Assembly (NCBI GenBank): GCA_045597145.1
Contig: JAZODU010000060.1
Location: 9,562 to 73,561, forward strand
Length of the DNA stretch: 64,000 nt
Source: Eubacteriales bacterium
GTDB taxonomy: Bacteria; Bacillota; Clostridia; Oscillospirales; CAG-272
Direction of reading: 5' to 3'
Under the pieces are notes generated by a model. That model ran no database searches, was not told where the DNA came from, and worked only from the letters and a program-made list of their open reading frames with translations. Made by a program: the position numbers and the translations under genes. Positions within the stretch are counted from its first letter, which is position 1; every line of letters starts with the position of its first letter. Positions 8,602 through 64,000 of this stretch are shown here, one piece after another.

Positions 8602-8611
8602 AGTGTTTCCT

Positions 8612-10276: not shown

Positions 10277-10277
10277 A

Positions 10278-10733: not shown

Positions 10734-10747
10734 TTTGGCAGCACTCC

Positions 10748-13337: not shown

Positions 13338-13573
13338 TCCGCGCCCTCCCCTTTAAAATCCGCGAGCGTCGCCGTGCCGTCTGCCTGCATTTGCAGGATC
13401 TTGACGCTTTGCTCGGCGTTTTCCAGCTTCTCCGAGCAGGCGCGGATCAAGGAGATCCCCTCCTCGTAAAGCTTGAGGGAGGCATCCAGCCCCTCGCTTC
13501 CGCTTTCCAATGTATGCAATATTTCCTCAAGGCGCGCCATTGCCGCCTCAAAGGTCACCGTTTTCTTCGTCAT
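13334..13573 (-). CDS. xseB: exodeoxyribonuclease VII small subunit
   Basis: 79 aa, FEAAMARLEEILHTLESG...LKLYEEG, sitting directly after xseA. Confidence 0.9.
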   Translation of the reverse strand: MTKKTVTFEAAMARLEEILHTLESGSEGLDASLKLYEEGISLIRACSEKLENAEQSVKILQMQADGTATLADFKGEGAE

Positions 13574-13574
13574 A

Positions 13575-14777
13575 TCATTCTTCCTTTCCGTTTACCGTGG
13601 CGCGCACCCGTCCGTCCGAGAATCGGATCTGCACCTCGTCGCCCACGGCAAGCTCGTGCGCCAGAGTCACCGTGTTTCCCTCTTTTGCGATCGCGGCGTA
13701 TCCGCGCGAGAGAACTGCGAGCGGGTTGAGTGCCTCCAGGCGTCCCGCGCTACTGCCAAGCTGTTGTTTTTTGTTGCCAAGCACACCCTGCATCGCGCGC
13801 TCCAGTGCTGCTTCGCGCTCGTCAAGACGCAGACGGTAGGGCTCCAGCATTTGCTCGGGGCGAGTAAAGACCCGTGCGCCCGCAATCGTTTGCAAAACCC
13901 TCTTTTCCTGCGCGATTTTCTGCCCGATCAGCACGCGAAGCCGCTCCCCCGTGGCACGCAAGCCCTGCAGGATATCCTGCAAAACCGGCACGGCAAGCTC
14001 TGCCGCTGCCGACGGTGTCGGTGCGCGTCGATCCGCCACAAAGTCGCAGATGGTAAAATCGCTTTCGTGCCCCACCGCCGAGATCACGGGGATACGGCAC
14101 GCGGCGACCGCACGCGCAAGTCCCTCGTCATTGAACGCCCACAGATCCTCGGCTGATCCGCCGCCGCGGCCGAGAATGATCACGTCGACAAGATCGGTGA
14201 CCCGGAAAAATTCCAGTCCCGCGATCAGCTGCATGGGAGCCTCCGCGCCCTGCACCTGCGAGGGAAAGAGGATCATTTGTGCGCACGGAAAGCGTCTGCC
14301 CAAAATATTCATGATGTCATGCACCGCCGCGCCCGAGGGCGAGGTGATCACGCCGATACGCATCGGCATGGGCGGCAGTGGCTTTTTACGGCTCTCGTCA
14401 AAGAGCCCTTCGGCGGCAAGCTGACGCTTGAGCTGCTCAAATCGCAGGGCAAGCGAGCCCGCGCCGTCGGGGATCAGCTCGTCGACGTAGAGCTGGTACT
14501 GCCCCCCCTCGGGATACACCGACACGCGGCCGTGTGCGATCACGCGCATGCCGTCCACGGGACGGAACGAAAGCCGCGCGGCATAGGAGCGAAACATGAC
14601 CGATCTGAGCTGCCCCGTTTCGTCCTTCATGGTAAAATAGCAATGCCCCGATGAATAGGTTTTGAAATTGGAGAGCTCGCCGCGCACGAACACGCTTGAA
14701 AGCACGCGGTCGCCGTCAAGGATCATTTTGAGATATTCGTTGACCTGTGTGACCGACAACGGATCCTTTTGTATCAT
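13575..14777 (-). CDS. xseA: exodeoxyribonuclease VII large subunit
   Basis: Start placed at [17 protein letters not shown] (14777). An OB-fold N-terminus ([10 protein letters not shown]) precedes the catalytic core ([16 protein letters not shown]). Confidence 0.9.
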
Positions 14778-20821: not shown

Positions 20822-20910
20822 AAATAAAGCACCTTTCTTGATTTTGGTACGGCAAAAAGACCCCTTCCAAAGGATGTACTTCGGAAACGGCAATGTGCCA
20901 TATATGAAAA

Positions 20911-21054
20911 CCAAGCAGGGTTTGTTTTGCGGTTACCCGCATATTTGAGTCTGCTGCTTACGACGGAATATTCCGCCGGAGAAGCATCCGCCGAACATTC
21001 GATCACTTCTCTCCTCGTCAACCGCACACACGTCCCGCGTGCGGTCTGGCGCTA
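20911..21054 (-). ncRNA. glmS ribozyme: glmS ribozyme (GlcN6P-dependent self-cleaving leader)
   Basis: The minus strand reads A/GCGCCAGACCGCACGCGGGACGUGUGUGCGGUUGACGAGGAGAGAAGUGAUCGAAUGUUCGGCGGAUGCUUCUCC. This contains the conserved AGCGCC cleavage site, GACGAGG, GAUCGAA and UCGGCGGAUGC blocks. It lies 90 nt upstream of the glmS ATG. Confidence 0.9.
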
Positions 21055-21106
21055 TCTTTTCCCTGATTTTCGGGGGTATTTTCTGTTTTTGAGGCGCAGA
21101 GTCCAT

Positions 21107-30119: not shown

Positions 30120-30338
30120 AGCATTTTTTCTCCTTTTTAAATTTTGTTGGGCTTTTGCCCCTTTTTGGGTTGGGACAAACGAACAAACTGCGCTCGCCCC
30201 TCCCTCACTCGTTTCGCCTTGGATAGCCCCGTATTCTTTAGCAATACAGAGGTCCGCGCCGCTACGTATGCAGGTTGGCAATCGCCCTTTTTCGTTTGCA
30301 GAACAGTGTAATAGGAACACTATTGCACTATACAGTTT

Positions 30339-30941: not shown

Positions 30942-31298
30942 TCAAATTCTTTCTTGAATGATTCGATCCAAATAATCACAAACGCCTTTAAAATTGCTGT
31001 GAATCTCCAAATTGGATATCCGAATAACCGTTAAACCGTAACCTACTAAAAATGCCGTTCGCTCGGCATCGTTCTCTTTGCCTTGATCACTGTAATGACC
31101 TGATCCGTCCAGCTCTATAACCAATTTTGCTTTCGCGCAATAAAAATCTGCGATGTATTTTCCCAAAACCTTTTGACGCGTAATTTTGACTGGATAAAAG
31201 CGCAGAAAATCATACCACAGCCGTTTCTCTTCCTTTGTCATATTCTTACGTAATATTCTGGCGATTGAAACCAGCTTTGGATTGCGCTTGCTTTGCAT
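30942..31298 (-). CDS. DUF559 (Vsr-like endonuclease fold) domain protein
   Basis: 118 aa with ARILRKNMTKEEKRLWYDFLR...IADFYCAKAKLVIELDGSGHY...D..R...L...G..V.R. This is the typical DUF559 pattern. Markedly AT-rich relative to its neighbours. Confidence 0.85.
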   Translation of the reverse strand: MQSKRNPKLVSIARILRKNMTKEEKRLWYDFLRFYPVKITRQKVLGKYIADFYCAKAKLVIELDGSGHYSDQGKENDAERTAFLVGYGLTVIRISNLEIHSNFKGVCDYLDRIIQERI

Positions 31299-31319: not shown

Positions 31320-31613
31320 CTAAAACCGAAAGCCCTTTTTCTTGGGGCGCGGACACAGGCAACAGGACAGATCCGACGCCGACAGGCGCACGAGGATCGT
31401 GTCCTCGCCAAAGCATTCGATCTTGTGCCACGGGATCACAATGTCGTCCTCCCTGCCCAACCCGAACACGCCGTTACACCCCGAAATCACAAGCGCCAGA
31501 ATCCGCGCGTCCTCTTTGTCAAATTCAAAGTCCGAAGCATACCCCAGCCGCGCGCCGTCACAGAGATTGATGATCTCCAGCTTGCGCAGCTCCGCCGTAC
31601 TGCACCGTTTCAT
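31320..31613 (-). CDS. ylmC: YlmC/YmxH family (PRC-barrel) sporulation protein
   Basis: Only the last 97 aa of the 246-aa track ORF look real: MKRCSTAELRKLEIINLCDGARLGYASDFEFDKEDARILALVI...IPWHKIECFGEDTILV. This is the only gene in the window that ends in TAG. Confidence 0.8.
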   Translation of the reverse strand: MKRCSTAELRKLEIINLCDGARLGYASDFEFDKEDARILALVISGCNGVFGLGREDDIVIPWHKIECFGEDTILVRLSASDLSCCLCPRPKKKGFRF

Positions 31614-50662: not shown

Positions 50663-51412
50663 TCAATCGGCGTCGATCATCGACTTCATGTCGTAAAGAC
50701 CTGCGTTTTTGCCGCACAGAAATTCCGCCGCGGCGATCGCACCCTCGGCAAAGAGTGCGCGGCTGTGCGCCTCGTGCTTGAGCGTGATGGTCTGGGTGTC
50801 CGTGCCCACGATGACCTCGTGCTCGCCGATGATGTTGCCCATGCGGATCGCGTGAACGCCGATCTCGTCTGCCTCGCGCTTTGCCTGCCCTGCGCGACCG
50901 AAGATCAGACGCGCCTTGGTGCGGATCTCACGGATCGCGTTCGCCAGAAGCAATGCTGTGCCGCTGGGCGCGTCCAGCTTGCGGTTGTGGTGCTTTTCGA
51001 TGATCTCGATGTCAGCGTCGGGAAAGGTCTTGGCAGTCATTTTGGCAAGCTCGACCAACAGCGCGATCCCGAGCGACATATTTGCCGAACGGAACACGGG
51101 GATCTCTCTTGCCGCCGCCTCGATATAGGCGTTCTCCTCGTCGGTGTGCCCCGTTGTGGCAAGCACGACTGGCAGCTTTTTTGCTACGGAAAAATCCAGC
51201 ATGGCACGCGTTCCCGTGTGGTGGGAGAAATCCACGATGCAATCGATCTCACCGCAAACGGCACTCCAATCGGTGTACGTGGGAAATTCGCGCGTATCCA
51301 CGGGCAGAATATCAAAGCCCGCGACCGCCTCGGCTCCGCGCACGCCGTCAAGCGCAAGCTTTGCCACTTCTCTTCCCATGCGTCCGCCAACGCCGCAAAT
51401 CAGTATCTTCAT
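50663..51412 (-). CDS. dapB: 4-hydroxy-tetrahydrodipicolinate reductase
   Basis: MKILICGVGGRMG at the N-terminus and EIIEKHHNRKLDAPSGTA. Confidence 0.95.
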   Translation of the reverse strand: MKILICGVGGRMGREVAKLALDGVRGAEAVAGFDILPVDTREFPTYTDWSAVCGEIDCIVDFSHHTGTRAMLDFSVAKKLPVVLATTGHTDEENAYIEAAAREIPVFRSANMSLGIALLVELAKMTAKTFPDADIEIIEKHHNRKLDAPSGTALLLANAIREIRTKARLIFGRAGQAKREADEIGVHAIRMGNIIGEHEVIVGTDTQTITLKHEAHSRALFAEGAIAAAEFLCGKNAGLYDMKSMIDAD

Positions 51413-51432
51413 GTGTTCGTTTCCTTTCGGGA

Positions 51433-52317
51433 TCAGATCAGGTTCTGCTCTTTCATGAGTGCGAGCAGCTTTGCCTCGTTCTGCGCTTCCATGGGCGTCA
51501 GCGGCAGGCGCAGGCTGTTCTCACCGTAGCCCATTGCAGACACCGCCGCCTTGACGGGGATCGGGTTGACCTCGCAGAAGAGCGCGTTGATCAGGTTCAA
51601 AAGATCCAACTGCATCGCGGCACTTCCCGCCACGTCACCCGCAAAGAACTTGCGGCACATCTCGCTCGTCGCCTTCGGCATGATGTTGGAGAGCACCGAG
51701 ATCACGCCCTTACCGCCCAAGGAGAGGACGGGGACGATCTGGTCGTCGTTGCCCGAATAGATGTCCATTTTGCCGCGCACGAGGGACGCCAACTCCGCGA
51801 TCTGCGAAATATTACCGCACGCCTCCTTGATCGCCACGATGTTGGGGTGATCCGCCAGCGCCGCCGCACTTGCGGGCAGAAGATTACAGCCCGTACGCGA
51901 GGGAACGTTATACAGAATGATGGGCTTGGTGCTGATATCCGCCACCGCCTCGAAGGACTTGATCAGTCCCTTCTGGGTCGCCTTGTTGTAGTAAGGCGTG
52001 ACGAGCAGCATCGCGTCAGCCCCCACCTCACACGCGAACTTGGTCAGGTCGATCGCGTAAGCGGTATCGTTCGAGCCTGTGCCCGCGATCACGGGCACCC
52101 GTCCCGCAACCTTCCCCACGGCATAGCGGATCACCTCGCGGTGCTCTTCGTCGGTCAGCGTCGAGCCCTCGCCCGTCGTGCCGCATGCCACGATCGCGTC
52201 GATGCCCTCGGCGATCTGCCATTCAATGAGGCGTCCGAACTGCTCGTAGTCGACCTCTCCGTTCTTGAAGGGGGTCACGATCGCGGTTGCCGCGCCTGTA
52301 AAAATCGTCTGTTTCAT
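51433..52317 (-). CDS. dapA: 4-hydroxy-tetrahydrodipicolinate synthase
   Basis: GAATAIVTPF, CGTTGE, YNVPSRTG and the AIKEA active-site Lys. Confidence 0.95.
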   Translation of the reverse strand: MKQTIFTGAATAIVTPFKNGEVDYEQFGRLIEWQIAEGIDAIVACGTTGEGSTLTDEEHREVIRYAVGKVAGRVPVIAGTGSNDTAYAIDLTKFACEVGADAMLLVTPYYNKATQKGLIKSFEAVADISTKPIILYNVPSRTGCNLLPASAAALADHPNIVAIKEACGNISQIAELASLVRGKMDIYSGNDDQIVPVLSLGGKGVISVLSNIMPKATSEMCRKFFAGDVAGSAAMQLDLLNLINALFCEVNPIPVKAAVSAMGYGENSLRLPLTPMEAQNEAKLLALMKEQNLI

Positions 52318-52342
52318 GTTGTTCGTCCTTTCATGCGTTACA

Positions 52343-52381
52343 TCAAAATGGGCAGAGAAAGCAAGCGCATTTCTCTGCCCA
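52343..52381 (-). terminator. expression-platform terminator of the lysine riboswitch
   Basis: Minus strand GGGCAGAGAAA-UGCGCUUGC-UUUCUCUGCCC followed by AUUUUGAUG. Confidence 0.8.
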
Positions 52382-52415
52382 TCTGCGAATCAAAATTCAC
52401 TCATAACGGGTTCAA

Positions 52416-52575
52416 GATAGCACTCCGCATTTCTGCGACAGCACGGCGGATCTTGTCCGCAATGCCAGGATCACGCGCGCGCCCCGCATGTCCTTCGGCA
52501 CCCAATCCTTTTCCCACCGCAACGCCTGCGCAGGCTGTTCCGCGGCAGCTACTCTTATATAGGTGCGCCTCTATC
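52416..52575 (-). promoter_or_regulatory. lysine riboswitch (L-box) controlling dapA-dapB-lysA
   Basis: The minus strand reads GAUAGAGGCGCACC..AAGAGUAGC...GGGAAAAGG..GUGCCGAAGG...CUGUCGCAGAAAUGCGGAGUGCUAUC. This matches the conserved L-box blocks AGAGGCGC, AGAGUA, GCCGAAG, CUGUC and GGAG.GCUAUC. Confidence 0.9.
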
Positions 52576-52588
52576 ATTATTGGTTGCT

Positions 52589-52617
52589 ATTATAACATAC
52601 TTTCACGGGCTTGTCAA
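52589..52617 (-). promoter_or_regulatory. sigma-A promoter for the lysine-riboswitch operon
   Basis: Minus strand TTGACA (52617-52612), a 17-nt spacer, then TATAAT (52594-52589). Confidence 0.75.
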
Positions 52618-52652
52618 TGCCCTTATGGCATTTTTTGTCGCTTTTTTTAAAA

Positions 52653-53891
52653 TCAGTCGTAGATCGGGAATTTCTCGCAAAGAGCCACGACCTCGGCACT
52701 CACGCGCTCGCGATTTGCCTCGAAGTCGGATGCGATATCCTTCATCCACTGCGCGATCTTGAGCATCTCCGCTTCCTTAAAGCCACGGGAGGTCACGGCA
52801 GGCGTACCCACGCGGATACCGCTGGTGACAAAGGGCTTCTCGGGATCGTTGGGGATCGCGTTCTTGTTGACGGTGATGTGCACCTCGTCAAGACGCTTTT
52901 CCATTTCCTTACCCGTAATGCCGAAGGGGCGCAGGTCGATGAGCATCAGGTGGTTGTCGGTGTCGCCCGAAACGATGCGGAAGCCTGCCTCCTTGAGCGC
53001 GTCGCACAGAACCTTTGCGTTCTTGACGATCTGGGTCTGATATTCCTTAAATTCATCGGTCATCGCCTCGCCAAGGGCTACTGCCTTTGCCGCGATGATG
53101 TGCATCAGGGGTCCTCCCTGCGTTCCCGGGAACACAGCCTTGTCAATCTGCTTTGCGTACTGCTCACGGCAAAGGATCAAGCCGCCACGAGGGCCGCGCA
53201 GCGTTTTGTGCGTGGTGGTGGTGACGACGTCGGCATACGGAACGGGGCTGGGATGAAGCCCTGCCGCAACAAGACCTGCGATGTGCGCCATATCGACCAT
53301 ATAGATCGCGCCCACCTCGTCTGCGATCTCGCGGATCTTTGCAAAATCGATGGTTCTGGAGTATGCGCTAGCACCCGCGATGATCATCTTGGGCTTGCAC
53401 TCAAGAGCTACGCGGCGGATATCCTCATAGTCCAGCATCTCGGTTTCGTCGGACACGCTGTATGGAACGACGTTGAAATACTTACCCGAAATATTGACGG
53501 GAGAGCCGTGGGAAAGATGTCCGCCGTGTGCCAGATTCAGCCCCATGACGGTGTCGCCGGGCTCAAGGAATGCGAAAAAGGTTGCAAGGTTTGCGCTTGC
53601 GCCGCAGTGGGGCTGCACGTTTGCGTGCTCCGCGCCGAAGAGCTTCTTTGCTCTCTCACGTGCGATATCCTCAACGATGTCAACGTACTGACAGCCACCG
53701 TAGTAACGCTTGCCGGGAAAGCCCTCGGCATATTTATTGGTCAGCACCGTGCCTGCCGCCAGAAGCACCGCCTTGGAAACGATGTGCTCGGACGCGATCA
53801 GCTCGATGTTGTTGCGCTGACGGTTCAGCTCCAGCGTACATGCGTCGTACACTTCCTTGTCGTAATTTACCAGCTCATCAAAAAAGTTCAT
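52653..53891 (-). CDS. glyA: serine hydroxymethyltransferase
   Basis: [23 protein letters not shown] (PLP Lys), 412 aa. Confidence 0.95.
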
Positions 53892-53921
53892 TTTGTATTC
53901 CTCTCTTTCGGGGGTATTGAT

Positions 53922-54749
53922 TTAAATTTTTTGTTTTTTCCAACCGTTTGCGGTCATGGTCATGACCGATGAAATGCCGCACGCGCGAAGCCGCTCGAGT
54001 GCCTCGTCGAAGGCGCACAGCAGGTGATCCTTATTATGCGCATCGGAATTGAGCGTCACGCTTCCCTTTTTCTCGGCGATCCGCCGCAAAATAAAGGGAG
54101 ACGGATACGGCGTTTTGCGGTAGCCGCGCGAGATCGCGCCCGTGTTGACCTCAAAAATGACGTCCTTTTCAAGCAATGCGTCAAGTGCCTCAAGCGCATA
54201 TCCTACGTATCTCGGGTCACTCTCGTCAATCAGTTCGTCCTTTTCGTTGAATTTGGTCAAGAGGTCGAAATGTCCGACGATATCGCATTTCGTAACGTCG
54301 GCAACGCGCGCGACGCTGTCGTAATACGCCTTGGCATAGCGCATGATATCACCGCCGCAATGCTCCTTTACGGTTTTCACGGTGCGCTCTGCGGAATAAT
54401 CCACGCCGCAGTATTCGCCGTCCAGATGCACGTAATGCACCGAGCCGATCACGTAATCGTAGGGTGCGGTCGGCGCGCCTGCGTGGAAATCCTGCTCCAC
54501 GCCGAGCAAAATATGAATGCGGTCGCCGTATACCTCTTGCAAGCGCTTGACCTCGGCGCGGTAGAGCGGAACGCTCTCCGGCTTCATACCGAACACGCCC
54601 TCAACGCCCGTGCAGCAATGCTCGGAAAAGCCGAGCACCTCCATACCCGCGTCGATCGCCGCCAGAACGACCTCCTCGGGGGTATGCGCACCGTCGCAAA
54701 AGCGGGTGTGCGTGTGCAGATTGCTCCGCACCTGTATCATATCAGGCAT
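53922..54749 (-). CDS. PHP-family histidinol-phosphatase (HisJ-like)
   Basis: SNLHTHTRFCDGAHTPEE and GFSEH, 275-283 aa. Start at MPDMIQ (54749) or 54773. Confidence 0.75.
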   Translation of the reverse strand: MPDMIQVRSNLHTHTRFCDGAHTPEEVVLAAIDAGMEVLGFSEHCCTGVEGVFGMKPESVPLYRAEVKRLQEVYGDRIHILLGVEQDFHAGAPTAPYDYVIGSVHYVHLDGEYCGVDYSAERTVKTVKEHCGGDIMRYAKAYYDSVARVADVTKCDIVGHFDLLTKFNEKDELIDESDPRYVGYALEALDALLEKDVIFEVNTGAISRGYRKTPYPSPFILRRIAEKKGSVTLNSDAHNKDHLLCAFDEALERLRACGISSVMTMTANGWKKQKI

Positions 54750-55554
54750 CGTTTTCCTTCTTTCCAAGCCCATTCTCGATCGTTTCGCGCACGTGTGCGC
54801 AAAGCTCGGACAAGGACTGTGCTTTTACCGTTTCGCTGTCAATGACCTCAAGCACCTCAAGCTCCACCTGCGTTCTCCTGCGCAGCGCGCGCTTGGAGAT
54901 CTGATTGGTGCCCTTTGTGGTGATCACGACAATGGGGGCGTTCGTGCGCTTGGCGAGGAGGAACGCGCCCTCCTTGAATTCCAGCAATTCGCCCGACTTG
55001 CTCCGTGTTCCCTCGGGATAGATCCCCATGATCATCTGCTCGCTCAGCATCATTTCGCCCGCGCGCTTGATCGTACGCATCGCCTTCATGGGGTTCTCGC
55101 GGTCGATCGGCAGAAAGCCTGCGTTATGCACGTAAGAGCCCGCAACGGGGATCTTGAAGTTGGATTGCTTGGAAATGAACGCGATCTTGCGGTGCTTGAC
55201 CTTGGAAAGCACCACGATCGGGTCAAAATTGGACAAATGATTGGACACCAGCACGAAGGGCTCGTTCGGGAATTGCTCCATTCCCTTGAAGCGGACCCTG
55301 ACACCAAGGAGCGTCAGAAGCCAATCACAACTGAATTGGATCATGAAATAGACGCCGCGCAAGGGCTTTTCGATGGGCTTATCCTTTTTGGGAAAGAAAA
55401 GCGTGGAAAGCCAGAGCAGGCAGAAATAGAGCGGATTGATCAGAATGAACAAGCCGATAAAGATCGGAATTGCCCACAAAAGGTGGATCTCCGCCAAAAG
55501 CGCGATACCGACACTGCCGAGTGCCGACAGCACCAGAAAAATGTAACAAAGCAT
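54742..55554 (-). CDS. plsC: 1-acyl-sn-glycerol-3-phosphate acyltransferase
   Basis: The HX4D motif appears as SNHLSNFD, with IYPEGTRS and N-terminal TM helices. Confidence 0.85.
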   Translation of the reverse strand: MLCYIFLVLSALGSVGIALLAEIHLLWAIPIFIGLFILINPLYFCLLWLSTLFFPKKDKPIEKPLRGVYFMIQFSCDWLLTLLGVRVRFKGMEQFPNEPFVLVSNHLSNFDPIVVLSKVKHRKIAFISKQSNFKIPVAGSYVHNAGFLPIDRENPMKAMRTIKRAGEMMLSEQMIMGIYPEGTRSKSGELLEFKEGAFLLAKRTNAPIVVITTKGTNQISKRALRRRTQVELEVLEVIDSETVKAQSLSELCAHVRETIENGLGKKENDA

Positions 55555-55566
55555 TCCTTACCTCAA

Positions 55567-56478
55567 TTATTTTGCGGCTACGGGCTCTTCCTTTGCCGCT
55601 TTTTTGCCCGAGCGGACGGTGTAGGAGGTCACGCCGAGAACCGTTTCTCCGTCGATCTGCAGGGATCTGGGAGAATCAAATTCCACGGTGATCTCGTGTC
55701 CCGTGCCGATCGCAACGATCTTTTCGTGCTTGACGTGCTCACCCTTGAAGATCGACGGGAACACCATCAGCGTTTTCAGAGCGCTTGAACCGTGGAACAT
55801 GCAGAAGGACACCTTGCCCTCGGGATCGAGGCGATCCTGTTGGGGTGTCACCATCATGCCGCCACCGTAGTATCTGCCCTTCATCGTGGGTGCAATCCAC
55901 GTTTTGGGATATTTTTTCGTCACGCCGTCCACCGTGACCGTTGCGTTTGCGGGCTTGAACTTTCCAAGCAGCCCCTTGATCGCAATCGCGGTGTAATTGA
56001 CGGGCTTATCCGACGTTTCGCGGATCTTATCCCCCATCTCACAGCAATATCCGTCGATGCCAAATCCGATGCCGTTGATGAAGCGGTAGGTCTTGCCGTT
56101 GACCGTGACAGTTGGCAGATCCTTGATGTAATTGCCGAGCGGGATCAGCTCGTCGGAATCGGGAGATACGTCCTTTTTGAAGTCGTTTCCGCTTCCTGCG
56201 GGATAGTAAAAGAGCTTTTCGGGAAGTGCGTTGCCCTCGTTTTCGTTGATAAAGCGATTGAGCGTTCCGTCACCGCCAGCGAGAATGACCGTGTCGTTTT
56301 GGAGGTCGACCGTGCTCCAGAATGCGGAATAATCGCCCAGCTTGCAAAGATCCACGAAGGTATGCTCCTCGTTTCCCAGCTTTTCGGCGAGTACCTTTGC
56401 CAGCGCCTCTCCTTGCTTGCTTGCAGAGAGCGGATTGTAGAGAATGTAATACATAAACGAATTTTCCTGCCCTTTCAT
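55567..56478 (-). CDS. diacylglycerol/lipid kinase family protein (YegS/DagK-like)
   Basis: ILAGGDGTLN motif, 303 aa. Confidence 0.8.
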   Translation of the reverse strand: MKGQENSFMYYILYNPLSASKQGEALAKVLAEKLGNEEHTFVDLCKLGDYSAFWSTVDLQNDTVILAGGDGTLNRFINENEGNALPEKLFYYPAGSGNDFKKDVSPDSDELIPLGNYIKDLPTVTVNGKTYRFINGIGFGIDGYCCEMGDKIRETSDKPVNYTAIAIKGLLGKFKPANATVTVDGVTKKYPKTWIAPTMKGRYYGGGMMVTPQQDRLDPEGKVSFCMFHGSSALKTLMVFPSIFKGEHVKHEKIVAIGTGHEITVEFDSPRSLQIDGETVLGVTSYTVRSGKKAAKEEPVAAK

Positions 56479-56515
56479 GATCTTTTGAATCGAACTCTGT
56501 CGAAAAATTCATCTT

Positions 56516-56544
56516 ATTATAACATATATTTATTCTGCGGTCAA
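56516..56544 (-). promoter_or_regulatory. sigma-A type promoter for lipid kinase-plsC-PHP operon
   Basis: Minus strand TTGACC (56544-56539), a 17-nt spacer, then TATAAT (56521-56516). Confidence 0.6.
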
Positions 56545-56595
56545 GGCGTTTTTGCCCCGTTCTTTTGGGCAATCGCGTCTAAATGCACAAAAAGA

Positions 56596-57384
56596 TCAGC
56601 AAGTATACACCGAAACAAATTCCTTCGGGGTCATATCGGTCAATTCCTTAAAGACCTTGCAAAAATAGGCGGCGTTGGAAAAGCCGCACCGCTCTGCAAC
56701 TTCACCGACGCGCACGCTCGGCGTTTGCAGAAGGATCTGCTTGGCGCGGCGGATGCGCGTACGTCGCAGAAAATCGGTTGGCGTCGTGTGCTCCTCCTCA
56801 CGAAACAGGCGGAACAGAAGCGAGGGAGAGATCCCCGCCTCGCGCGCCACCTCCCCGACCGAAAGCTCGGCATCGTAGCAATGCTGCTCGATGTAGTTTT
56901 TCGCACGCATGAAGCTCGGCGTTGCTTGGTTTCCGTGGAGCTCGGCAAAAAAGCGGGTCAGGATCTCGTAGAGTGCGCAGGAGAGCCGATCGGGCGTGCA
57001 ATTGCGCGCGCCCAAGCGCGCGCTGTGCCCGATCATGGACATCAGAGCGTCGCTTTTGAGATAAGTAAAATTCTCGGCGCGCCAATATTCCAGCAGCCGA
57101 TCCGCCATTTCGCCGTCAAAGGTGAGAAAGCCTACCTTGAAGGTGTTCTCTGCAGGATAATAGCACGTGGGATAATTTTTGCGGATAAAGAGGACGGTTC
57201 CCGCGCCCAGCGTAACGCGCCCGTTCGGCGTTTCAAACACGCCGCTTCCCTCTTCCACACAAAAAATGTGATGCCCCCAAAAGCCTTCGGGGCGATCGAC
57301 TCTCGGCTGATCGTAATCCGTTCCCGCCGTGATCACGTAAAGCGGCAACAGCTCGCATCGGGTATCGTCCGTATAAAAAAACAT
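56596..57384 (-). CDS. AraC family transcriptional regulator (cupin + HTH)
   Basis: The C-terminus GEVAERCGFSNAAYFCKVFKELTDMTPKEF is a typical AraC HTH-2. Divergent from the GH2 gene. Confidence 0.9.
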   Translation of the reverse strand: MFFYTDDTRCELLPLYVITAGTDYDQPRVDRPEGFWGHHIFCVEEGSGVFETPNGRVTLGAGTVLFIRKNYPTCYYPAENTFKVGFLTFDGEMADRLLEYWRAENFTYLKSDALMSMIGHSARLGARNCTPDRLSCALYEILTRFFAELHGNQATPSFMRAKNYIEQHCYDAELSVGEVAREAGISPSLLFRLFREEEHTTPTDFLRRTRIRRAKQILLQTPSVRVGEVAERCGFSNAAYFCKVFKELTDMTPKEFVSVYTC

Positions 57385-57509
57385 GCGCGTTCCTTTCGTG
57401 TAGAATTTTTATATTTTTGCAGAAATTTGTTATTTACATTCCTTTGATAATCCATTATACTACAATCAAGACCAAATGTCAACCACTAACCCAAAAAAGG
57501 AGAAAAGAC

Positions 57510-59850
57510 ATGAAAAAGACTTGCATCTCAAAGGATTGGTACGTCGTTGCCGCAGGAGAAAAGCACTTTGGAAACTACCTCAACGAGGAAAATTCCGACT
57601 TTTTCGGAACAGTGGATCTGCCGCACGATTTTGCAATCTCCCTGCCCCGCCTCCCCGACGCTGACGGCGGTGCGTTCAACGGTTATTTTCAGGGTGGGCG
57701 TGCGGATTACACCAAGTTTTTGACCTTTGACGCCGACGTCGAGCACGTGATCCTCGGAGTGGACGGCTCCAATATGCACACTGAGGTCATGTTCAACGAG
57801 GATATCCTCTATAAGCATCATCACGGCTACACGCCGTTTCTGGTGGACCTGACGAGCCGCGTGCGTCGCGGAGGGCTCTCCAACAAGCTACGCATGCGGA
57901 TCCTCGCACAGCAGCCCTCGACGCGTTGGTACGCGGGCGGCGGTCTTTACCGCGACGTCTATCTTTGGACGGGCGGCAAGGCGCGCATCGAGCCTTACGA
58001 TCTGTTCGTCAGCACTCCGACGGTCACAGCAGAGGACGCAACCGTGCGCGTAGACGCGACGGTCGCATCCGACCTGCATACCGACGTGACACTGCGCGCG
58101 CGCATTCTTGACGCCGACGTCCTTTTACATGCACGTCCCCGCACCGCATCTTTGGGACATTGACGCGCCCAATCTTTACACGATGCTGACCGAGGTCGTG
58201 CCGAACGGCGAGGTGACCGACACCGACGAATGCACATTCGGCATCCGCACGATCTCTGCCGACGCCAAGCGTGGTTTTCTTCTCAACGGACGCCCCTTGA
58301 AGATGAAGGGCGGCTGTATGCACCACACGCACGCGGTGCTGGGGGCAGCAGATTTTGCCGAGGCGGTGGAGCGTCAGATCCGTCAGCTCAAGAGCGTTGG
58401 CTACAACGCCATTCGCTCGGCGCACAATCCCCCCTCCTCCACGCTTCTTGAGGTCTGCGACCGCCTTGGCATGATGCTCATGGACGAGGCGTTTGACATG
58501 TGGCGCGTGAGCAAAACGATCCTTGATTACAACCAGTGGTTTGAATACTGCTGGGCTGACGATATCATGCGCATGGTCAAGCGCGACCGCAACCACCCAT
58601 GTGTGATCTCCTATTCGATCGGCAACGAGATCGAGGAGATTCATTCAATCTCCGAGGGCGGCAATTTTGCCAAAAAGCTTGCGGACCGCGTGCGCGAGTT
58701 TGACAACACGAAATTCGTCACGGCAGGCGGCCGGGCGCTGTTCCGCCGCGCGAGCGAAAGCGACCCTGCGGACTATCAGGATTTTTTCAATCGAGGCTTG
58801 CCCGACAGCGGCTACGGCGAGGTGCCCTCCACCTGGGACACGCGCACCGAGCAATTCTATGCGCCGCTTGACATTGTAGGCTACAATTACCTCTACTACC
58901 GCTATGAAAACGACAAGCATCTCTACCCCGAGCGCGTGATCTGGGGGTCGGAGAACAGAATGCAGCATTTTTACGATTCCTGGAAAGCCACAATAGAAAA
59001 TGACAACGTCATCGGCGACTTTTGCTGGACCTGCTACGACAACCTCGGCGAAGCGGGCACGGGACGCTTTGACTGGGCGCGCGATTACGTGCACACAGGG
59101 CTCTCTCTCGGAGATTTTTCCTGGATCGCCTGCTATCAGGGCGACTTTGATCTATGCGGCTACCGCCGCCCGCAGTCCTATTTCCGCGAAGCGATCTGGC
59201 AGGAGGACAAGACCGCGCACAAGATCTTTACAACGCACCCCGAGCACTTTGGCGAGGGATTCTCGGGCACCTCGTGGCACTGGTTTGACGTGCACGAGTG
59301 CTGGACGTTTGCCGACGAATATCTCGGCAAGCCCGTAAAGGCGGAGATCTACACGCAATGCGACGAGGTCGTCTGGTATCTCAATGGGCGCGAGATCGCC
59401 CGCTCCGTTCCCGAACGAGCGATCGCTTACGCGACGATCCCGTATGAGCGCGGCATTTTGGAGGCGGTGCTTTACAAGGACGGAAAAGAGTACGCCCGCG
59501 CCTCGCTTCACACGGTCGGCGCACCCGAAAAGCTGCATATGTATGCAGAAAAAGCCGAAATTTGCGCCGACAACCGAGAGCTTTGCTATCTGCCGATCTC
59601 GATCGTTGACAAAAACGGCGACCGCGTCACCGACAGCCGCGCGCCCCTGCATTGCACGGTCACGGGCGGCGAGCTGATGGGAATCTTCAGTGGGAATCCG
59701 CAGTCCACCGATCAATACACCTCCCCCGATTGCCACGCCTTTGAAGGGCGCGCCATGGCGATCGTGCGCGCCTCCGCGTCCGGCAAGGTGACCGTAACCG
59801 TGAGCTCCGACGGGCTCGGCAAAGCCCTTGTAAATATTGAAGCTGTTTGA
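57510..59850 (+). pseudogene. glycoside hydrolase family 2 (beta-galactosidase/glucuronidase-like), interrupted by a frameshift near 58110-58125
   Basis: ORF 57510..58163 holds the sugar-binding domain and the start of the Ig-like domain. ORF 58108..59850 in a different frame continues with VPAPHLWDIDAPNLY, LNGRPLKMKGGCMHH, NAIRSAHNP and SIGNEIEE (acid/base Glu). Confidence 0.8.
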
Positions 59851-59858
59851 TTTTTTGT

Positions 59859-60120
59859 GGGAAACTCCTTTCAAGAAGTTTCCCCGGCAAAGAGCAAGCT
59901 TTACAAAACAAAAACATCGTTTGAGTAAAAGAAAAACACCTTGCGCGTTTCAAATGCCTCTTAAAATCCGTTGACGAAACGCACCTCAACCGAAAATACA
60001 CTTCGCAAAAGCGACACGCCCCGGGGGCGGTGTTGTTAAGACACCGCCCCCGGGGCGTGCTCTTTTGTGACGTTCTTGATGGGAGAGAGGGACTTCTCCG
60101 TAAGAAGTCCCCCTCTCTCC
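59859..60120. repeat. composite palindrome-bounded intergenic element (copy 3 of 3, shorter)
   Basis: Bounded by gggaaactcctttcaagaagtttcccc (59859-59885) and gggagagagggacttctccgtaagaagtccccctctctcc (60081-60120). The right arm, with the 19-bp-stem hairpin cacgccccgggggcggtgt/acaccgcccccggggcgtg (60015-60059), is homologous to 18867-18913. Confidence 0.75.
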
Positions 60121-60130
60121 AAATTCTATC

Positions 60131-62059
60131 TTATCTCTTCTTGGTCGCCACTTCAACAAGTGCGTCAGCGAGGAATGCGTCAACGGGCTTGGAAACGGTT
60201 TCGCCCGCGCGATTACGCACGGAAACGGTTCCCTCCTCGACCTCCTTGCCGCCGATGATCAGCATATACGGCACCTTTTGCAACTGCGTATTGCGGATCT
60301 TGTAGCCGATGGTATTGGAGGAATCGTCCAGAACGACGCGCAAGCCTGCTGCGTCCAGCTTTTCCTTGACAGCCTTTGCGTATTCCACGTGCTCGTCACC
60401 AATGGGAAGCAGGCGAACCTGCTCGGGAGCGAGCCAGAGCGGGAACGCGCCTGCGTACTTCTCGATCAGAAGCGCCAGCGTTCTCTCGTAGCAGCCCATG
60501 GACGTGCGGTGAATGATATAGGGATTGACCAGCTGATTATTGGAATCCACGTACTCCATACCGAATTTCTTTGCCAGCAGCATGTCGATCTGAATGGTGA
60601 TCAGCGTGTCCTCTTTTCCAAATACGTTCTTAATCTGGATATCCAGCTTCGGTCCGTAGAACGCCGCCTCGTCGATACCGATCGCGTAGTCGATGCCGTT
60701 CGCATCCAGCAGATCCTTCATGATACCCTGCGCCTCATTCCACTGCTCGGGCGTGCCCTCGTACTTGTCGGTTCTTGTGGGATCCCACTGCGAGAAGCGG
60801 AAGGAGCAATCCTCCTTAAGCCCCAAGGTTTCCAGCATATACATTGCAAGATCAAGACAGCCCTTGAACTCCTCTGCCAGCTGATCGGGACGCAGGACGA
60901 GGTGTCCCTCGGAGATCGTGAACTGGCGCACACGGATCAAACCGTGCATCTCGCCCGAATCCTCGTTACGGAAGAGCGTGGAGGTCTCCCCCAAACGCAT
61001 GGGCAGGTCGCGGTAGGAGCGCTTCTTGTTCAAGAACACCTGATACTGGAAGGGACAGGTCATGGGACGGAGCGCGAAGCACTCCTTGGTTTCGTCGTGG
61101 GGGTCCCCCAACACGAACATGCCGTCAAGATAGTGATCCCAGTGACCCGAGATCTTATAAAGCTCTCTCTTTGCCATCAAGGGCGTTTTGGTGAGCAGGT
61201 AGCCGCGCTTCTGCTCCTCGTCCTCGACCCATCTCTGAAGCGTCTGGATCACGCGCGCGCCCTTGGGAAGCATGATGGGAAGTCCCTGACCGATGACGTC
61301 AACGGTTGTAAAGAGCTCCAATTCGCGTCCGAGCTTGTTGTGGTCGCGCTTGAGTGCCTCCTCCTGCTGTTGGACATATGCGTTCAGCTCGTCCTTGGTC
61401 GGGAACGCGATGCCGTAGATTCTCTGGAGCATCTTGTTCTTCTGGTCGCCCTTCCAATATGCGCCCGTGCACTGGGACGGCATGATCGCCTTGACGGCAC
61501 CCGTGGTAAAGAGGTGCGGGCCTGCGCACAGATCGGTAAATTCACCCTGCTTGTAGAAGCTGATGACCGCGTCCTCGGGCAGCTCCTCGATCAGCTGTAC
61601 CTTATAGGGCTCGTTCTTTTCCTGCATCAGCGCGATCGCCTCGGCGCGAGGCAGCTCAAATCTCTCGATTTTAAGGTTCTCCTTGACGATCTTCTACATC
61701 TCACCCTCAAGTGCCTTAAGCGCCTCGGGCGTGAAGGTGACATCGGAGTCGATATCGTAATAAAAGCCGTTTTCAACGGCAGGACCGATGGTCAGCTTGG
61801 CATCGGGATACAGGCGCTTGACCGCCTGCGCGAGAATATGCGACGCGGTATGGCGAAACAGATGCTTTCCAGCGGTGTCCTCAAAGGTCAGAAGCTTGAC
61901 CTCGGCATCCTCGGTCAGCTCGTACGTCATGGCAACGGTCTTGCCGCCGATCTCGGCACCGATGTGCGCGCGCGTGACCAACTCCATATCCCTTGCGGCG
62001 TCGTACACCGTTACGGGGGCGTCGTATTCGCGTACCTGATCCATAATTTTGATTTGCAT
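60131..62059 (-). pseudogene. thrS: threonine--tRNA ligase with one in-frame TAG at 61694-61696 (pseudogene, base-call error or recoding)
   Basis: Two track ORFs (61694..62113 and 60131..61627) share one frame. The joined read is ...[48 protein letters not shown]..., colinear with ThrRS (TGS domain, HTASHILAQA editing motif, class II core, anticodon domain). Start at MQIKIMDQ (62059). Confidence 0.85.
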
Positions 62060-62098
62060 GGTGTTGTTTTCCTTTCTGTATGTAAGTAAAATAATTAA

Positions 62099-62285
62099 CA
62101 AAAAATACCACACCCCGACAGATGATCACTCTCTGCTCGGGGTGTGGAAAATTCCGCACGGTTCCACCCGGACGTTTTACTTCATTGGTATGAAATTGTC
62201 ATAGAAAAGTGGTACCCCATACCCTCTGCGCGAGCTCTTCCAGCGAATCCTTTCGGAAACGAGCCCTTCTCTGTGACGCAGGTCG
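62099..62285 (-). promoter_or_regulatory. T-box riboswitch leader, Thr specifier ACC (62211-62213)
   Basis: On the minus strand Stem I runs GUCACAGAGAAG...GGGGU-ACC-A-CUUUUCUAUGAC. The T-box is GGGUGGAACCGUGCGG (62154-62169). The terminator is CCACACCCCGA...UCGGGGUGUGG plus UAUUUUUUG (62099-62147). Confidence 0.85.
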
Positions 62286-62315
62286 GACACAGGACGTGTC
62301 TTTCCCGTTTTTGCA

Positions 62316-62762
62316 TTACACCTCGGCGTTTGCCTTGGCGCGCTGCTTCATGTTATATGCCGAGCGCGGGTTCATGATCTCGCGCCAATCGAGGTCGCCT
62401 CTGTCAAGCGCGGTAACGATGACCTCCGCCGTTGCAATGTTGGTTGCAACCGGCACGTTGTAAAGATCGCACAGGCGCAACAGCTCCATTTCGACCTCAT
62501 CGACCGTGGCATCGGGGCGCGTATCCTTGAAATACAGAAGCACGTCGATCTCATTGCAGGAGATACGCGATGCGATCTGCTGCTTGCCGCCCTGCATACC
62601 TGCCAAAAGCCGTTCGATTTCAAGTCCGGTGGCTTCCGAAATATATTTTGCCGTGATATTGGTGGCACAAAGATTATGCTTGCTCAAAATGCCGCAGTAA
62701 GCAATACAAAACTGCGTCATCAATTCTTTTTTAAGGTCATGTGCAATGATAGCAATCTCCAT
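62316..62762 (-). CDS. methylglyoxal synthase-like (MGS-fold) protein lacking catalytic residues
   Basis: Start at MEIAIIAHDLKKE (62762) on an MGS scaffold. GGDQQ is replaced by GGKQQ, ATGTTG by ATNITA, and PHDPD by ATVDE. The E. coli MgsA comparison is from memory. Confidence 0.75.
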   Translation of the reverse strand: MEIAIIAHDLKKELMTQFCIAYCGILSKHNLCATNITAKYISEATGLEIERLLAGMQGGKQQIASRISCNEIDVLLYFKDTRPDATVDEVEMELLRLCDLYNVPVATNIATAEVIVTALDRGDLDWREIMNPRSAYNMKQRAKANAEV

Positions 62763-62937
62763 TCGTTCGGTAGCCCCTTTCTTTTTGGTTGTTCTATAGT
62801 CCTGCCACTGCGTGTTACAAGATTTCTCTATCATTATAACACAAATAGACACAAATTGTCAATAGAAAAAACAGATTTTTTGCTGTTCTGTGAAAAAACA
62901 AACGATCCAACGAAGGATTTACCGAAAAAAACGGGAT

Positions 62938-63474
62938 TTATTCATAGCGTGCGCGGATTCCGCCAATATATTTCGGGCGCGTGCGCGCAGCGAGAAGCGG
63001 TGCGGCACCGATTGCCTTGACCGACAGACGCACGGGCACTGCGACCTCGCGCAGGTGCATACCGATCAGCGTGCCGCCGATATCCAACCCCGCGTGTGCG
63101 CGGATATGCTCGACCGCAACGGGAGCATCAAACGCGCCCCATGCAGACGTTGCAAAGGAGCCCCCCGCCTTGGGCTGCGGAACGACGGACACCTCGTCGA
63201 TGCCGTACTCCTCGGCGCACGCACGCTCGATAATGAGCGCACGGTTGAGATGCTCACAGCATTGCGCCGCAAGGTAAATTCCCTTTTCCTTCAAAATCGG
63301 ATAGATCTCACCAAACACCGCTTGTGCGGTTTCAAAGCTTGATCCGTGTCCGATGGTTTCTCCGACGATCTCGGAGGACGAGCAGCCGATCACGAGGATC
63401 TGCCCTGCCTTCAGGTCAGCTGCCTCGATCAGCTCTCTGACTGCCTGCGCCGCCTGTTGCTTAATTGTTTCCAT
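62938..63474 (-). CDS. TIGR01440/DUF436 family protein
   Basis: 178 aa with ILVIGCSSSEI...AAQCCEHLNRAL...PKAGGSFA, the characteristic family blocks. Confidence 0.8.
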   Translation of the reverse strand: METIKQQAAQAVRELIEAADLKAGQILVIGCSSSEIVGETIGHGSSFETAQAVFGEIYPILKEKGIYLAAQCCEHLNRALIIERACAEEYGIDEVSVVPQPKAGGSFATSAWGAFDAPVAVEHIRAHAGLDIGGTLIGMHLREVAVPVRLSVKAIGAAPLLAARTRPKYIGGIRARYE

Positions 63475-63486
63475 AAAAACGCCTCC

Positions 63487-64000
63487 TTACCAACGGTCGC
63501 TGTCGTCGTCGGGGATCACGCGCTGAACAGCGGTGATCGCGCACTCGATCATATCGTCGGTGGGTTCAAAAACAGTAATGTGCTGGAGCCATACGCCCGG
63601 GAGCGAAATCAATCTCGTGAACCAGTTGTCGTGTCTGCCCGCAAATTTGATCAGCTCGTAGCCGATACCCATGATCAGAGGGATCAGGAGCACCTTGACG
63701 GCAAAGCGCAGGAGCGTGGGAAGCTCCTCGCCCGTGATCGCAATGGCAATGGGATCGATGAAAAACGTAACAAATATGCTTACCAACAGCATCAGGATCA
63801 GAAAAGACGTTCCGCAACGAGGGTGGAATCTGCGCTGGCGACGAATGTTTTCAACGGTCAATTCCTCGCCTGCCTCATAGCAGAAAATGGTCTTATGCTC
63901 GGCACCGTGGTACATAAAAGTACGTCGGATATCCTTCATCAAAGAGATCGCCGCCATGTATCCCACCAAAAGGATAATGCGCAGCACGCCCTCAAACGCA
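63487..64000 (-). CDS. DUF1385 domain membrane protein, C-terminal part (5' end beyond window)
   Basis: YHGAEHKTI...RFHPRCGTSF is the DUF1385 signature. The family is ~300 aa, so the true start lies past position 64000. Confidence 0.8.
   Translation of the reverse strand, partial: AFEGVLRIILLVGYMAAISLMKDIRRTFMYHGAEHKTIFCYEAGEELTVENIRRQRRFHPRCGTSFLILMLLVSIFVTFFIDPIAIAITGEELPTLLRFAVKVLLIPLIMGIGYELIKFAGRHDNWFTRLISLPGVWLQHITVFEPTDDMIECAITAVQRVIPDDDSDRW

What the first reader, a model, noticed from the sequence alone, without database searches (positions are those of the whole stretch)
61691..61699. In-frame amber codon inside the only visible thrS, in a window that almost never uses TAG as a stop
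thrS reads ...[23 protein letters not shown]... in a single continuous frame, with the TAG at 61694-61696. Both halves are intact, ThrRS-like and full length (643 codons in total). The gene keeps a well-formed Thr(ACC) T-box leader, RBS and terminator. There is no other sign of decay. At this position ThrRS proteins usually carry Lys or Glu (EMKKI-type context), and AAG or GAG is one substitution away from TAG. By my manual tally only 1 of 53 gene stops in this window is TAG (ylmC); the rest are TGA or TAA. That rarity is the usage pattern under which amber read-through or suppression is tolerated. Possible explanations are a base-call or assembly error, a recent nonsense mutation compensated by a second thrS, or suppression/recoding. 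Re-initiation at MQEKNEPYK would split the N2 editing domain, so a functional two-piece enzyme seems unlikely.
Basis: seen in the sequence. Interest (0 to 1): 0.6.

Follow-up and report, generated by a model that had tools for sequence, protein, structure and literature searches.

The report
Private nonsense codon in thrS
The threonyl-tRNA synthetase gene in this window does carry an in-frame TAG, but it is a one-base change (AAG Lys to TAG) seen in this single assembly only, next to a second private lesion in the same gene, so it looks like an ordinary defect (sequence error or fresh inactivating mutation) and not like genetic-code recoding.

Summary
thrS lies on the minus strand at 60131-62059, and codon 122 (61694-61696) is TAG in one continuous 643-codon frame.

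Nothing supports recoding.
- All 120 closest ThrRS proteins have Lys at this column.
- None of 83 thrS copies in 81 related loci has TAG (59 AAG, 14 AAA).
- Two metagenome scans found no other copy of a stop codon at this site.
- It is the only in-frame stop in the window with coding signal on both sides.
- No RNA structure follows it, and the window holds no tRNA.
- TAG ends a ylmC-like gene normally.
- TAG rarity is shared by relatives with intact thrS (about 3.4% of stops in their loci), so 1 in 49 is expected.

- Codons 193-195 read M-P-S where all 120 relatives have K-L-T. This sits in a run of five base changes within 12 nt (codons 192-195).
- The convergent GH2 gene, about 3.5 kb away, has a 62-nt frameshifting deletion.
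- About 48 other genes and an ArgRS control look normal.

The sequence comes from a single 110-kb NCBI contig with no same-species comparator. My split is: consensus error about 0.5, real recent inactivation with a backup ThrRS about 0.3, truncated editing-less enzyme about 0.08, and suppression about 0.04. Interest is low.

The parts
60131..62059 (-). thrS (threonyl-tRNA synthetase), 643 codons including the terminal TAA, interrupted at codon 122
   Evidence: Translation. 96% aa identity over residues 1-642 to P0001, without gaps. Relatives carry the Pfam domains tRNA_SAD, tRNA-synt_2b and HGTP_anticodon.
61694..61696 (-). In-frame TAG at codon 122, where relatives have AAG or AAA (Lys); a single A-to-T difference in the context ATG-TAG-AAG
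61694..62059 (-). N-terminal fragment ORF (121 aa: the TGS domain plus the first part of the N2 editing domain with HxxxH)
   Evidence: This exact 121-aa product is on record once, from one NCBI contig of 110,390 nt.
60131..61627 (-). C-terminal fragment ORF from Met145 (498 aa: the rest of N2, the catalytic core and the anticodon-binding domain)
   Evidence: The exact product is on record once, from the same single contig. GAGG lies 11 nt upstream of the ATG.
61475..61486 (-). Second private lesion: codons 192-195 ATC ATG CCG TCC (I-M-P-S) where relatives have TTC AAG CTG ACG (F-K-L-T). There are 5 base changes in 12 nt. K, L and T are invariant in 120 of 120 relatives.
   Evidence: FKL is also present in solved ThrRS structures.
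61481..61483 (-). New in-frame ATG (K193M) with AAGG 5 nt upstream. It is a speculative internal start for a 450-aa product without the editing domain.
   Evidence: This is inference only.
60776..60778 (-). Codon 428, Thr where 115 of 120 relatives have Ala; the remaining relatives have Lys or Asn, so it is probably benign
62100..62290 (-). thrS leader. It contains a T-box-like core GGGTGGAACCGTGCGG (62154-62169), a terminator hairpin (62108-62147) with a T run, and a conserved GGTACCAC holding the ACC triplet at 62211-62213.
   Evidence: Sequence. Conserved in L001, L002, L003, L004 and L014. Not recognised by the Rfam T-box model.
60015..60059 (.). 20-bp GC-rich hairpin between the convergent GH2 and thrS genes (bidirectional terminator-like)
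57510..59850 (+). Neighbouring GH2 glycosidase gene broken by a 62-nt deletion at about 58118. This causes a frameshift and splits the gene into ORFs 57417-58163 and 58108-59850.
   Evidence: tblastn frames, DNA alignment with L001, truncated Pfam domain.
31320..31322 (-). The only genuine TAG gene end found in the window (PRC-barrel, ylmC/ymxH-like gene, about 96 aa)

Best explanation
The TAG is an unprogrammed nonsense difference: AAG (Lys) became TAG through one A-to-T change. It is private to this one deposited assembly, and the ribosome would read it as a stop. As written, the sequence would yield a 121-aa fragment and no full-length ThrRS.

I think the most likely origin is a local patch of consensus error in a draft assembly. 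The assembly is probably metagenome-derived, because all relatives found are gut MAGs. On this reading the organism really has AAG and a normal 642-aa, T-box-type-regulated ThrRS. The same patch would account for the 12-nt cluster of substitutions 210 nt downstream.

Shown here:
- The TAG is present in the sequence.
- It is unique among relatives.
- A second private lesion lies in the same gene.
- The rest of the gene and its signals are intact.

Inferred: that the cause is error and not a real mutation. Only reads can decide that.
For: - All 120 nearest ThrRS proteins have Lys at this column.
- None of 83 thrS copies in related genomes has TAG; 59 have AAG in the same ATG-AAG-AAG context.
- Metagenome scans found no contig with this sequence and no relative with TAG, TAA, TGA or TGG at the site.
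- The 121-aa and 498-aa fragments are each on record from exactly one contig.
- thrS is otherwise under strong constraint: dN/dS against L001 is 0.086 for codons 1-121 and 0.033 for codons 145-642, with no indels.
- The leader, RBS and terminator are conserved or intact. The catalytic Zn-ligand motifs MTCPF, SEGH and IIHRT are present.
- No second thrS is visible in 64 kb, and 79 of 81 related loci show a single local copy. An essential single-copy gene with a stop is therefore unlikely to be real.
- Anomalies cluster within about 3.6 kb: the TAG, the 5-substitutions-in-12-nt patch and the GH2 deletion. The other roughly 48 genes and the ArgRS control are normal. That points to a local cause.
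- Five changes in 12 nt is not how independent point mutations accumulate, and 4 of the 6 changes are A:T-to-T:A transversions.
Against: - No reads or coverage data are available, so error is not demonstrated.
- The window as a whole is of high quality, with no homopolymer frameshifts in about 50 genes. Errors are therefore not generally common in it.
- A 62-nt deletion without flanking repeats is not a typical base-calling or de Bruijn graph artefact and may be real.
- Both damaging thrS changes fall in the editing domain while the catalytic body is untouched. Real relaxed selection on that module would give the same pattern.
- Some relatives do carry two thrS copies (L044, L074), so a backup copy is possible.
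Confidence: 0.5

Rival explanations
1. The lesions are real and recent. This thrS copy is a young pseudogene, and threonyl-tRNA charging is supplied by a second ThrRS gene elsewhere in the genome (a thrS/thrZ-type arrangement). The adjacent GH2 gene is an independent pseudogene.
For: - The gene has more than one private damaging change: K122*, K193M/L194P/T195S, plus A428T. That is 5 unique changes at conserved columns, against 0-2 in 15 relatives and 1 in the ArgRS control.
- The neighbouring GH2 carries a 62-nt frameshifting deletion without repeat flanks.
- The window is otherwise clean, which argues against generally poor sequence.
- Two related genomes have tandem thrS duplicates.
Against: - No second thrS exists in the 64-kb window, and the rest of the genome cannot be seen.
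- The broken copy is the ancestral, syntenic, leader-bearing one.
- dN/dS is still 0.03-0.09, with no indels.
- Five substitutions in 12 nt is one complex event, not gradual decay.
- Counting the cluster as one event, the excess of damage in the N-terminal part is not significant (p=0.24).
Confidence: 0.3
2. The lesions are real, and the cell lives on an N-terminally truncated, editing-deficient ThrRS. It would be translated from an internal start: either the new ATG at codon 193 (created by K193M, with AAGG 5 nt upstream, 450 aa) or Met145 (498 aa). This would resemble engineered or natural ThrRS forms that lack the N1-N2 module.
For: - Both damaging changes lie in the N2 editing domain, while the catalytic and anticodon-binding parts are intact.
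- K193M creates an in-frame ATG behind an SD-like AAGG.
- Natural ThrRS forms without an editing domain exist: yeast mitochondrial ThrRS (PMC4267643) and crenarchaeal ThrRS-cat (PMC3592468).
Against: - AAGG is a weak SD and is also present in relatives, because it encodes the conserved V-K-A.
- Only one of the five clustered changes is needed to make the ATG.
- No relative has this architecture; all 120 are about 642 aa.
- Separating the yeast cytoplasmic catalytic part from its N-terminal domains strongly reduced activity and failed to complement (PMC3592468).
- There is no expression evidence.
Confidence: 0.08
3. The TAG is decoded as sense, giving full-length ThrRS. Candidate routes are a suppressor tRNA(CUA), pyrrolysine insertion at a position that is normally Lys, or leaky read-through boosted by leader-mediated induction.
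For: - The site is normally Lys, and TAG is followed by A.
- TAG is rare as a stop in the window.
- The genome outside the window is unseen, so a tRNA(CUA) or pyl genes cannot be excluded.
Against: - The TAG is not conserved in any of about 200 relatives or in metagenomes.
- It is the only in-frame TAG among about 50 genes.
- TAG terminates the ylmC-like gene.
- The window has no tRNA and no Pyl-related Pfam hits.
- There is no downstream structure (z = -0.2, no stronger than in L001, which has AAG).
- TAG rarity is shared by relatives with intact thrS.
- All known bacterial stop reassignments involve UGA (PMC8629427).
- The second lesion (KLT to MPS) would still damage a read-through product.
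Confidence: 0.04

Closest known systems
Internal-stop pseudogene or assembly error, as flagged by genome annotation pipelines
   Same: A single nonsense substitution interrupts an otherwise full-length, highly conserved ORF. It is private to one assembly, and further private lesions lie nearby.
   Different: The affected gene is normally essential and single-copy, and its regulatory leader and catalytic domains are pristine. A classical decayed pseudogene is therefore not shown.
Pyrrolysine (UAG) decoding in methylamine methyltransferase genes
   Same: An in-frame UAG at a position related to lysine.
   Different: The UAG is not conserved in orthologues, the gene is not a methyltransferase, and the window holds no pyl genes or tRNA(CUA). 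This is a single occurrence.
Split or minimal ThrRS (crenarchaeal ThrRS-cat plus ThrRS-ed; yeast mitochondrial ThrRS without an editing domain)
   Same: The catalytic core and anticodon-binding domain could in principle be made without the N-terminal editing module.
   Different: Those are conserved, separately initiated genes. Here the split is a private stop codon that cuts through the N2 domain itself, and all relatives are fused 642-aa enzymes.
T-box leader of Firmicutes aminoacyl-tRNA synthetase genes
   Same: A conserved GGGTGG-ACC-type core overlapping a terminator, with a conserved ACC triplet followed by a purine upstream.
   Different: It does not reach any score against the Rfam T-box model, even at E<=10.

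Membership tests
Genome-wide or lineage-wide TAG reassignment | Many in-frame TAGs at conserved positions of conserved genes | tested here: not met
   Only one in-frame stop has coding signal on both sides in the 64 kb. About 48 other genes are intact by Pfam coverage or by comparison with L001.
Genome-wide or lineage-wide TAG reassignment | TAG is not used as a terminator | tested here: not met
   The PRC-barrel ylmC-like gene ends at TAG 31320-31322, 17 aa after its domain.
Programmed recoding site (Pyl or other) | The stop codon is conserved at the same position in orthologues | tested here: not met
   0 of 120 proteins and 0 of 83 thrS DNA copies have it. A degenerate metagenome scan found 0 hits.
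Programmed recoding site (Pyl or other) | tRNA(CUA), pylS and pylBCD are present | not testable with these tools
   No tRNA in the window and no Pyl-related Pfam hits among the window proteins.
Programmed recoding site (Pyl or other) | A stimulatory RNA structure downstream of the stop | tested here: not met
   The MFE z-score is -0.20 for the 131 nt from the TAG. The AAG-bearing L001 sequence gives -0.98.
Pseudogene | An ORF disrupted relative to intact orthologues | tested here: met
Pseudogene | Additional lesions or relaxed constraint | tested here: inconclusive
   A second private lesion at an invariant motif and an excess of unique changes against the ArgRS control. However, dN/dS is 0.03-0.09 with no indels, and the test counting events is not significant.
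Pseudogene | A functional paralogue covers the essential function | not testable with these tools
   None in the window. The rest of the genome is unavailable. Tandem duplicates exist in L044 and L074.
Split or minimal ThrRS (ThrRS-cat type) | A stand-alone catalytic gene conserved among relatives, with its own start | tested here: not met
   All 120 close relatives are fused enzymes of about 642 aa. The possible starts at codons 145 and 193 have only weak SD-like sequences.
T-box riboswitch (Rfam RF00230) | A match to the family covariance model | tested here: not met
   No T-box hit at the gathering threshold or at E<=10 on 601-nt and 216-nt stretches.
T-box riboswitch (Rfam RF00230) | A conserved T-box core overlapping a terminator/antiterminator, with the specifier codon in a conserved context | tested here: inconclusive
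   GGGTGGAACCGTGCGG, a terminator and GGTACC(A/G)C are conserved in 5 relatives. Stem I and the specifier-loop geometry were not modelled.

The most novel reading that the evidence does not exclude
The lesions are real, and this gut Oscillospiraceae-type bacterium has lost ThrRS editing. The stop at codon 122 and the destroyed FKLT strand inactivate the N2 domain. A catalytic-core enzyme is then made from an internal start, namely the ATG newly created at codon 193 or Met145. That would make it a free-living bacterium with a naturally editing-less ThrRS and presumably Ser-for-Thr mistranslation. A still rarer variant is rescue of the essential gene by a suppressor or Pyl tRNA, at about 0.03-0.04.
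Probability: 0.1. Interest if true: 0.6.

Novelty: already known. Interest (0 to 1): 0.15.

Why it matters
As it stands the finding matters mainly as a quality flag. Codon 122 and codons 192-195 of thrS, and the GH2 gene at about 58118, should be checked against reads before this genome is used for code-usage, essential-gene or pseudogene statistics.

It also illustrates two general points. An in-frame stop in a conserved gene combined with rare TAG usage is not evidence for recoding when the stop is private to one assembly. And the TAG rarity here is shared by relatives with intact thrS.

If reads confirmed both thrS lesions and no second thrS existed, it would become an interesting natural case of an editing-deficient or suppressed ThrRS.

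Tried and rejected
1. Finding the source genome or same-species genomes.
- Exact look-ups of the 498-aa, 121-aa, DUF436 and AraC products returned no retrievable contig.
- The cluster look-up shows that they exist once, on a single 110,390-nt NCBI contig.
- The closest retrievable relative (L001) is only about 86-87% identical at the DNA level, so it is another species.
- The genome-contig scan returned 80 other species and not the source.

2. Metagenome scans. A window-specific 32-mer with N at the mutated base and a degenerate EM-[TAG/TAA/TGA/TGG]-KIVKENLKI pattern both gave 0 hits. There is no population information.

3. The Rfam T-box model gave no hit in three searches.

4. A recoding structure downstream of the TAG was rejected.

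5. A compensated frameshift as the cause of the I-M-P-S cluster was rejected. By inspection of the sequences, gapped alignments are no better than ungapped ones.

6. A donor sequence for gene conversion or template switching in the window was not found.

7. Window-wide poor sequence quality was rejected. The ArgRS control and 11 syntenic genes are clean.

8. The crude codon-usage gene finder produced many apparent frameshift candidates that were simply adjacent operon genes. Only GH2 was confirmed by homology.

Full report
**1. Observation**

thrS lies on the minus strand from 62059 (ATG, preceded by GAAAGGA) to 60131 (TAA). The plus strand reads CTA at 61694-61696, so codon 122 is TAG. The frame is continuous: 121 codons, TAG, then 520 further sense codons and the terminal TAA, 643 codons in all.

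tblastn with the closest relative aligns residues 1-642 at 96% identity without a gap. It finds no other thrS in the window. A scan of all six frames for stops flanked by at least 60 open codons with coding-like codon usage on both sides ranks this TAG first. The next two candidates are normal gene boundaries that happen to be in frame.

**2. What relatives have at the site**

A search of about 5.8 billion protein clusters returned thousands of ThrRS sequences. The best 120 are 86-96% identical, and nearly all are 642 aa long (633-660). All 120 have Lys at the aligned column.

I fetched 81 related loci: one from ENA and 80 species representatives, nearly all gut or rumen MAGs labelled Oscillospiraceae, Eubacteriales or Clostridia. 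Their 83 thrS copies have these codons at the site: AAG 59, AAA 14, CGN 6, GCG 2, CAG 1, ACC 1, and TAG 0. The closest one reads GAG ATG AAG AAG ATC where the window reads GAG ATG TAG AAG ATC. The TAG is thus one A-to-T step from the ancestral AAG.

Two metagenome scans found nothing. One used a window-specific 32-mer with N at the changed base. The other used a degenerate pattern for EM-[TAG/TAA/TGA/TGG]-KIVKENLKI.

**3. Provenance**

- Exact look-ups show that the 121-aa and 498-aa fragments, and three other window proteins, each occur once in a 15-billion-protein collection.
- All come from a single NCBI contig of 110,390 nt, which the locus tools did not return.
- The nearest retrievable genome (L001) is syntenic over 50669-64000 but only 86-87% identical in DNA, so it is a different species.
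- No same-species comparator exists, and the TAG is known from exactly one assembly.

**4. Tests of recoding**

- The window has no tRNA and nothing Pyl-related among about 50 Pfam-annotated proteins.
- The 131 nt starting at the TAG fold no better than shuffles (z = -0.20). The L001 sequence, which has AAG, gives z = -0.98.
- TAG does terminate a gene here, the ylmC-like PRC-barrel gene at 31320.
- This rarity is not special to this genome. In the 81 related loci, all with intact thrS, a crude gene caller gives 22 TAG among 654 stops (3.4%). At that rate, at most 1 in 50 has probability 0.49.
- UAG use is low across bacteria in general (PMC4989110).
- A screen of more than 250,000 genomes states that all known bacterial stop reassignments involve UGA. 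It attributes stray in-frame stops to pseudogenes (PMC8629427).
- Recoding is therefore not supported, although a private suppressor tRNA elsewhere in the genome cannot be excluded.

**5.

Against L001, the only run of consecutive amino-acid differences in thrS is at codons 192-195. The window has GCG ATC ATG CCG TCC CAG (A-I-M-P-S-Q). L001 has GCG TTC AAG CTG ACG CAG (A-F-K-L-T-Q). That is five base changes in 12 nt.

- K, L and T are invariant in all 120 relatives.
- Across 83 more distant thrS copies the motif is always [FIVLY]-[KR]-[LIV]-[TLM], and never M-P-S.
- The FKL strand is also present in solved S. aureus and other ThrRS structures.

In total, the window's ThrRS has five changes that are unique at columns conserved in at least 95% of relatives: K122*, K193M, L194P, T195S and A428T. 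Each of the 15 nearest relatives has 0-2. A428T lies in a loop where other relatives have K or N, so it is probably harmless.

Both damaging events fall in the N2 editing domain, between or after the HxxxH (70-74) and CxxxH (178-182) motifs. The catalytic motifs are intact. A compensated frameshift does not explain the cluster, and no donor sequence exists in the window.

**6. Is the whole window of poor quality?**

It is not.

- ArgRS from the same window was tested the same way against its own 119 relatives. It has one unique change at conserved columns, within the 0-2 range of its relatives.
- Eleven other genes syntenic with L001 are gapless and stop-free, with dN/dS of 0.01-0.16.
- All other Pfam-annotated genes show essentially full profile coverage.

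The exception is the gene convergent with thrS. The GH2 glycosidase (57510-59850, plus strand) lacks 62 nt relative to L001 at about 58118, which shifts the frame and truncates the PF00703 domain.

The anomalies are therefore local: three of them within about 3.6 kb of an otherwise clean 64 kb.

**7. Constraint on thrS**

Against L001 (dS about 0.47), dN/dS is 0.086 for codons 1-121, 0 for codons 123-144 and 0.033 for codons 145-642, with no indels.

The leader is conserved with five relatives: GGTACC(A/G)C, GGGTGGAACCGTGCGG and the terminator. A strong hairpin follows the gene. Whatever happened is very recent on the evolutionary scale, or it is not biological.

The leader looks like a T-box by eye. 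However, the Rfam T-box model gave no match at the gathering threshold or at E<=10.

**8. Explanations**

(a) *Local consensus error in a draft, probably metagenome-derived assembly (about 0.5).*
- For: the gene is essential and normally single-copy; the change is private; the anomalies are spatially clustered; five changes in 12 nt form one complex event; four of the six changes are A:T-to-T:A transversions.
- Against: the window is otherwise of high quality, and a 62-nt deletion without repeats is not a typical artefact.

(b) *Real, recent inactivation with a second ThrRS elsewhere (about 0.3).*
- For: there are multiple private lesions in this gene only; a broken neighbour suggests that real lesions are recorded faithfully; L044 and L074 show that tandem thrS duplicates occur in the clade.
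- Against: no backup copy is visible, and the broken copy is the ancestral, regulated one.

(c) *Real lesions with a truncated, editing-less enzyme (about 0.08).*
- K193M creates an in-frame ATG 5 nt after AAGG, and Met145 has GAGG 11 nt upstream.
- Natural precedents for ThrRS without an editing domain exist (PMC4267643, PMC3592468).
- However, the SD-like sequences are weak, only one of the five clustered changes is needed to make the ATG, and separating the yeast catalytic part from its N-terminal domains impaired function (PMC3592468).

(d) *Suppression or Pyl insertion (about 0.04).* See section 4. In addition, a read-through product would still carry the Leu-to-Pro motif damage.

**9. 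Comparison with known things, and verdict**

This behaves like an ordinary internal-stop lesion of the kind annotation pipelines flag. It fails the tested defining features of TAG reassignment, programmed recoding and split ThrRS families. Membership in the class "pseudogene" is only half met, because disruption is shown but relaxed constraint and a backup copy are not.

There is no novelty as the evidence stands, and interest is low (0.15). The decisive data are the read pile-ups at 61475-61486, 61694-61696 and about 58118, together with a whole-genome search for a second thrS, a tRNA(CUA) and pyl genes.

Noticed in passing
window 57417-59850 (+), break at about 58118: The GH2 glycoside hydrolase gene convergent with thrS has a 62-nt deletion relative to L001. 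The deletion shifts the frame and splits the gene into 248-aa and 580-aa ORFs. The gene is otherwise conserved (dN/dS 0.06-0.11).
   Followed up: yes
window 61475-61486 (-): Five substitutions within 12 nt of thrS convert the invariant F-K-L-T motif of the editing domain to I-M-P-S and create an in-frame ATG at codon 193.
   Followed up: yes
window 62100-62290 (-): The thrS leader has a T-box-like core, a terminator and a conserved ACC context shared with relatives. It gives no hit to the Rfam T-box model even at E<=10, so it may be a divergent or shortened T-box variant in this clade.
   Followed up: partly
L044 about 10001-13900 and L074 about 7700-11550: Two related genomes carry two thrS copies in tandem, with the Lys-site codons about 1.93-1.97 kb apart. 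In L074 the 21 nt around the Lys codon are identical in the two copies.
   Followed up: no
window 20903-21064 (-): A glmS ribozyme (Rfam, 97.6 bits) lies directly upstream of glmS (18992-20914).
   Followed up: no
window 52410-52581 (-): A lysine riboswitch (Rfam, 79.6 bits) lies upstream of the dapA and dapB genes (51433-52317 and 50663-51412).
   Followed up: no
window 25626-30320 (-): A 1564-aa ORF with strong coding signal has no Pfam family at E<=0.001. It lies just upstream of rpsB-tsf on the minus strand.
   Followed up: no
window 61766-61780 (-): A terminator-like hairpin followed by a T run lies inside the thrS coding region, about 70 nt upstream of the TAG. It encodes the conserved P-A-V-E-N-G-F-Y-Y motif, so it is probably a chance match.
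   Followed up: no
window 4950-5723 (-) and 30942-31298 (-): An MT-A70 family adenine methyltransferase gene and a DUF559 endonuclease-like gene sit among housekeeping genes.
   Followed up: no
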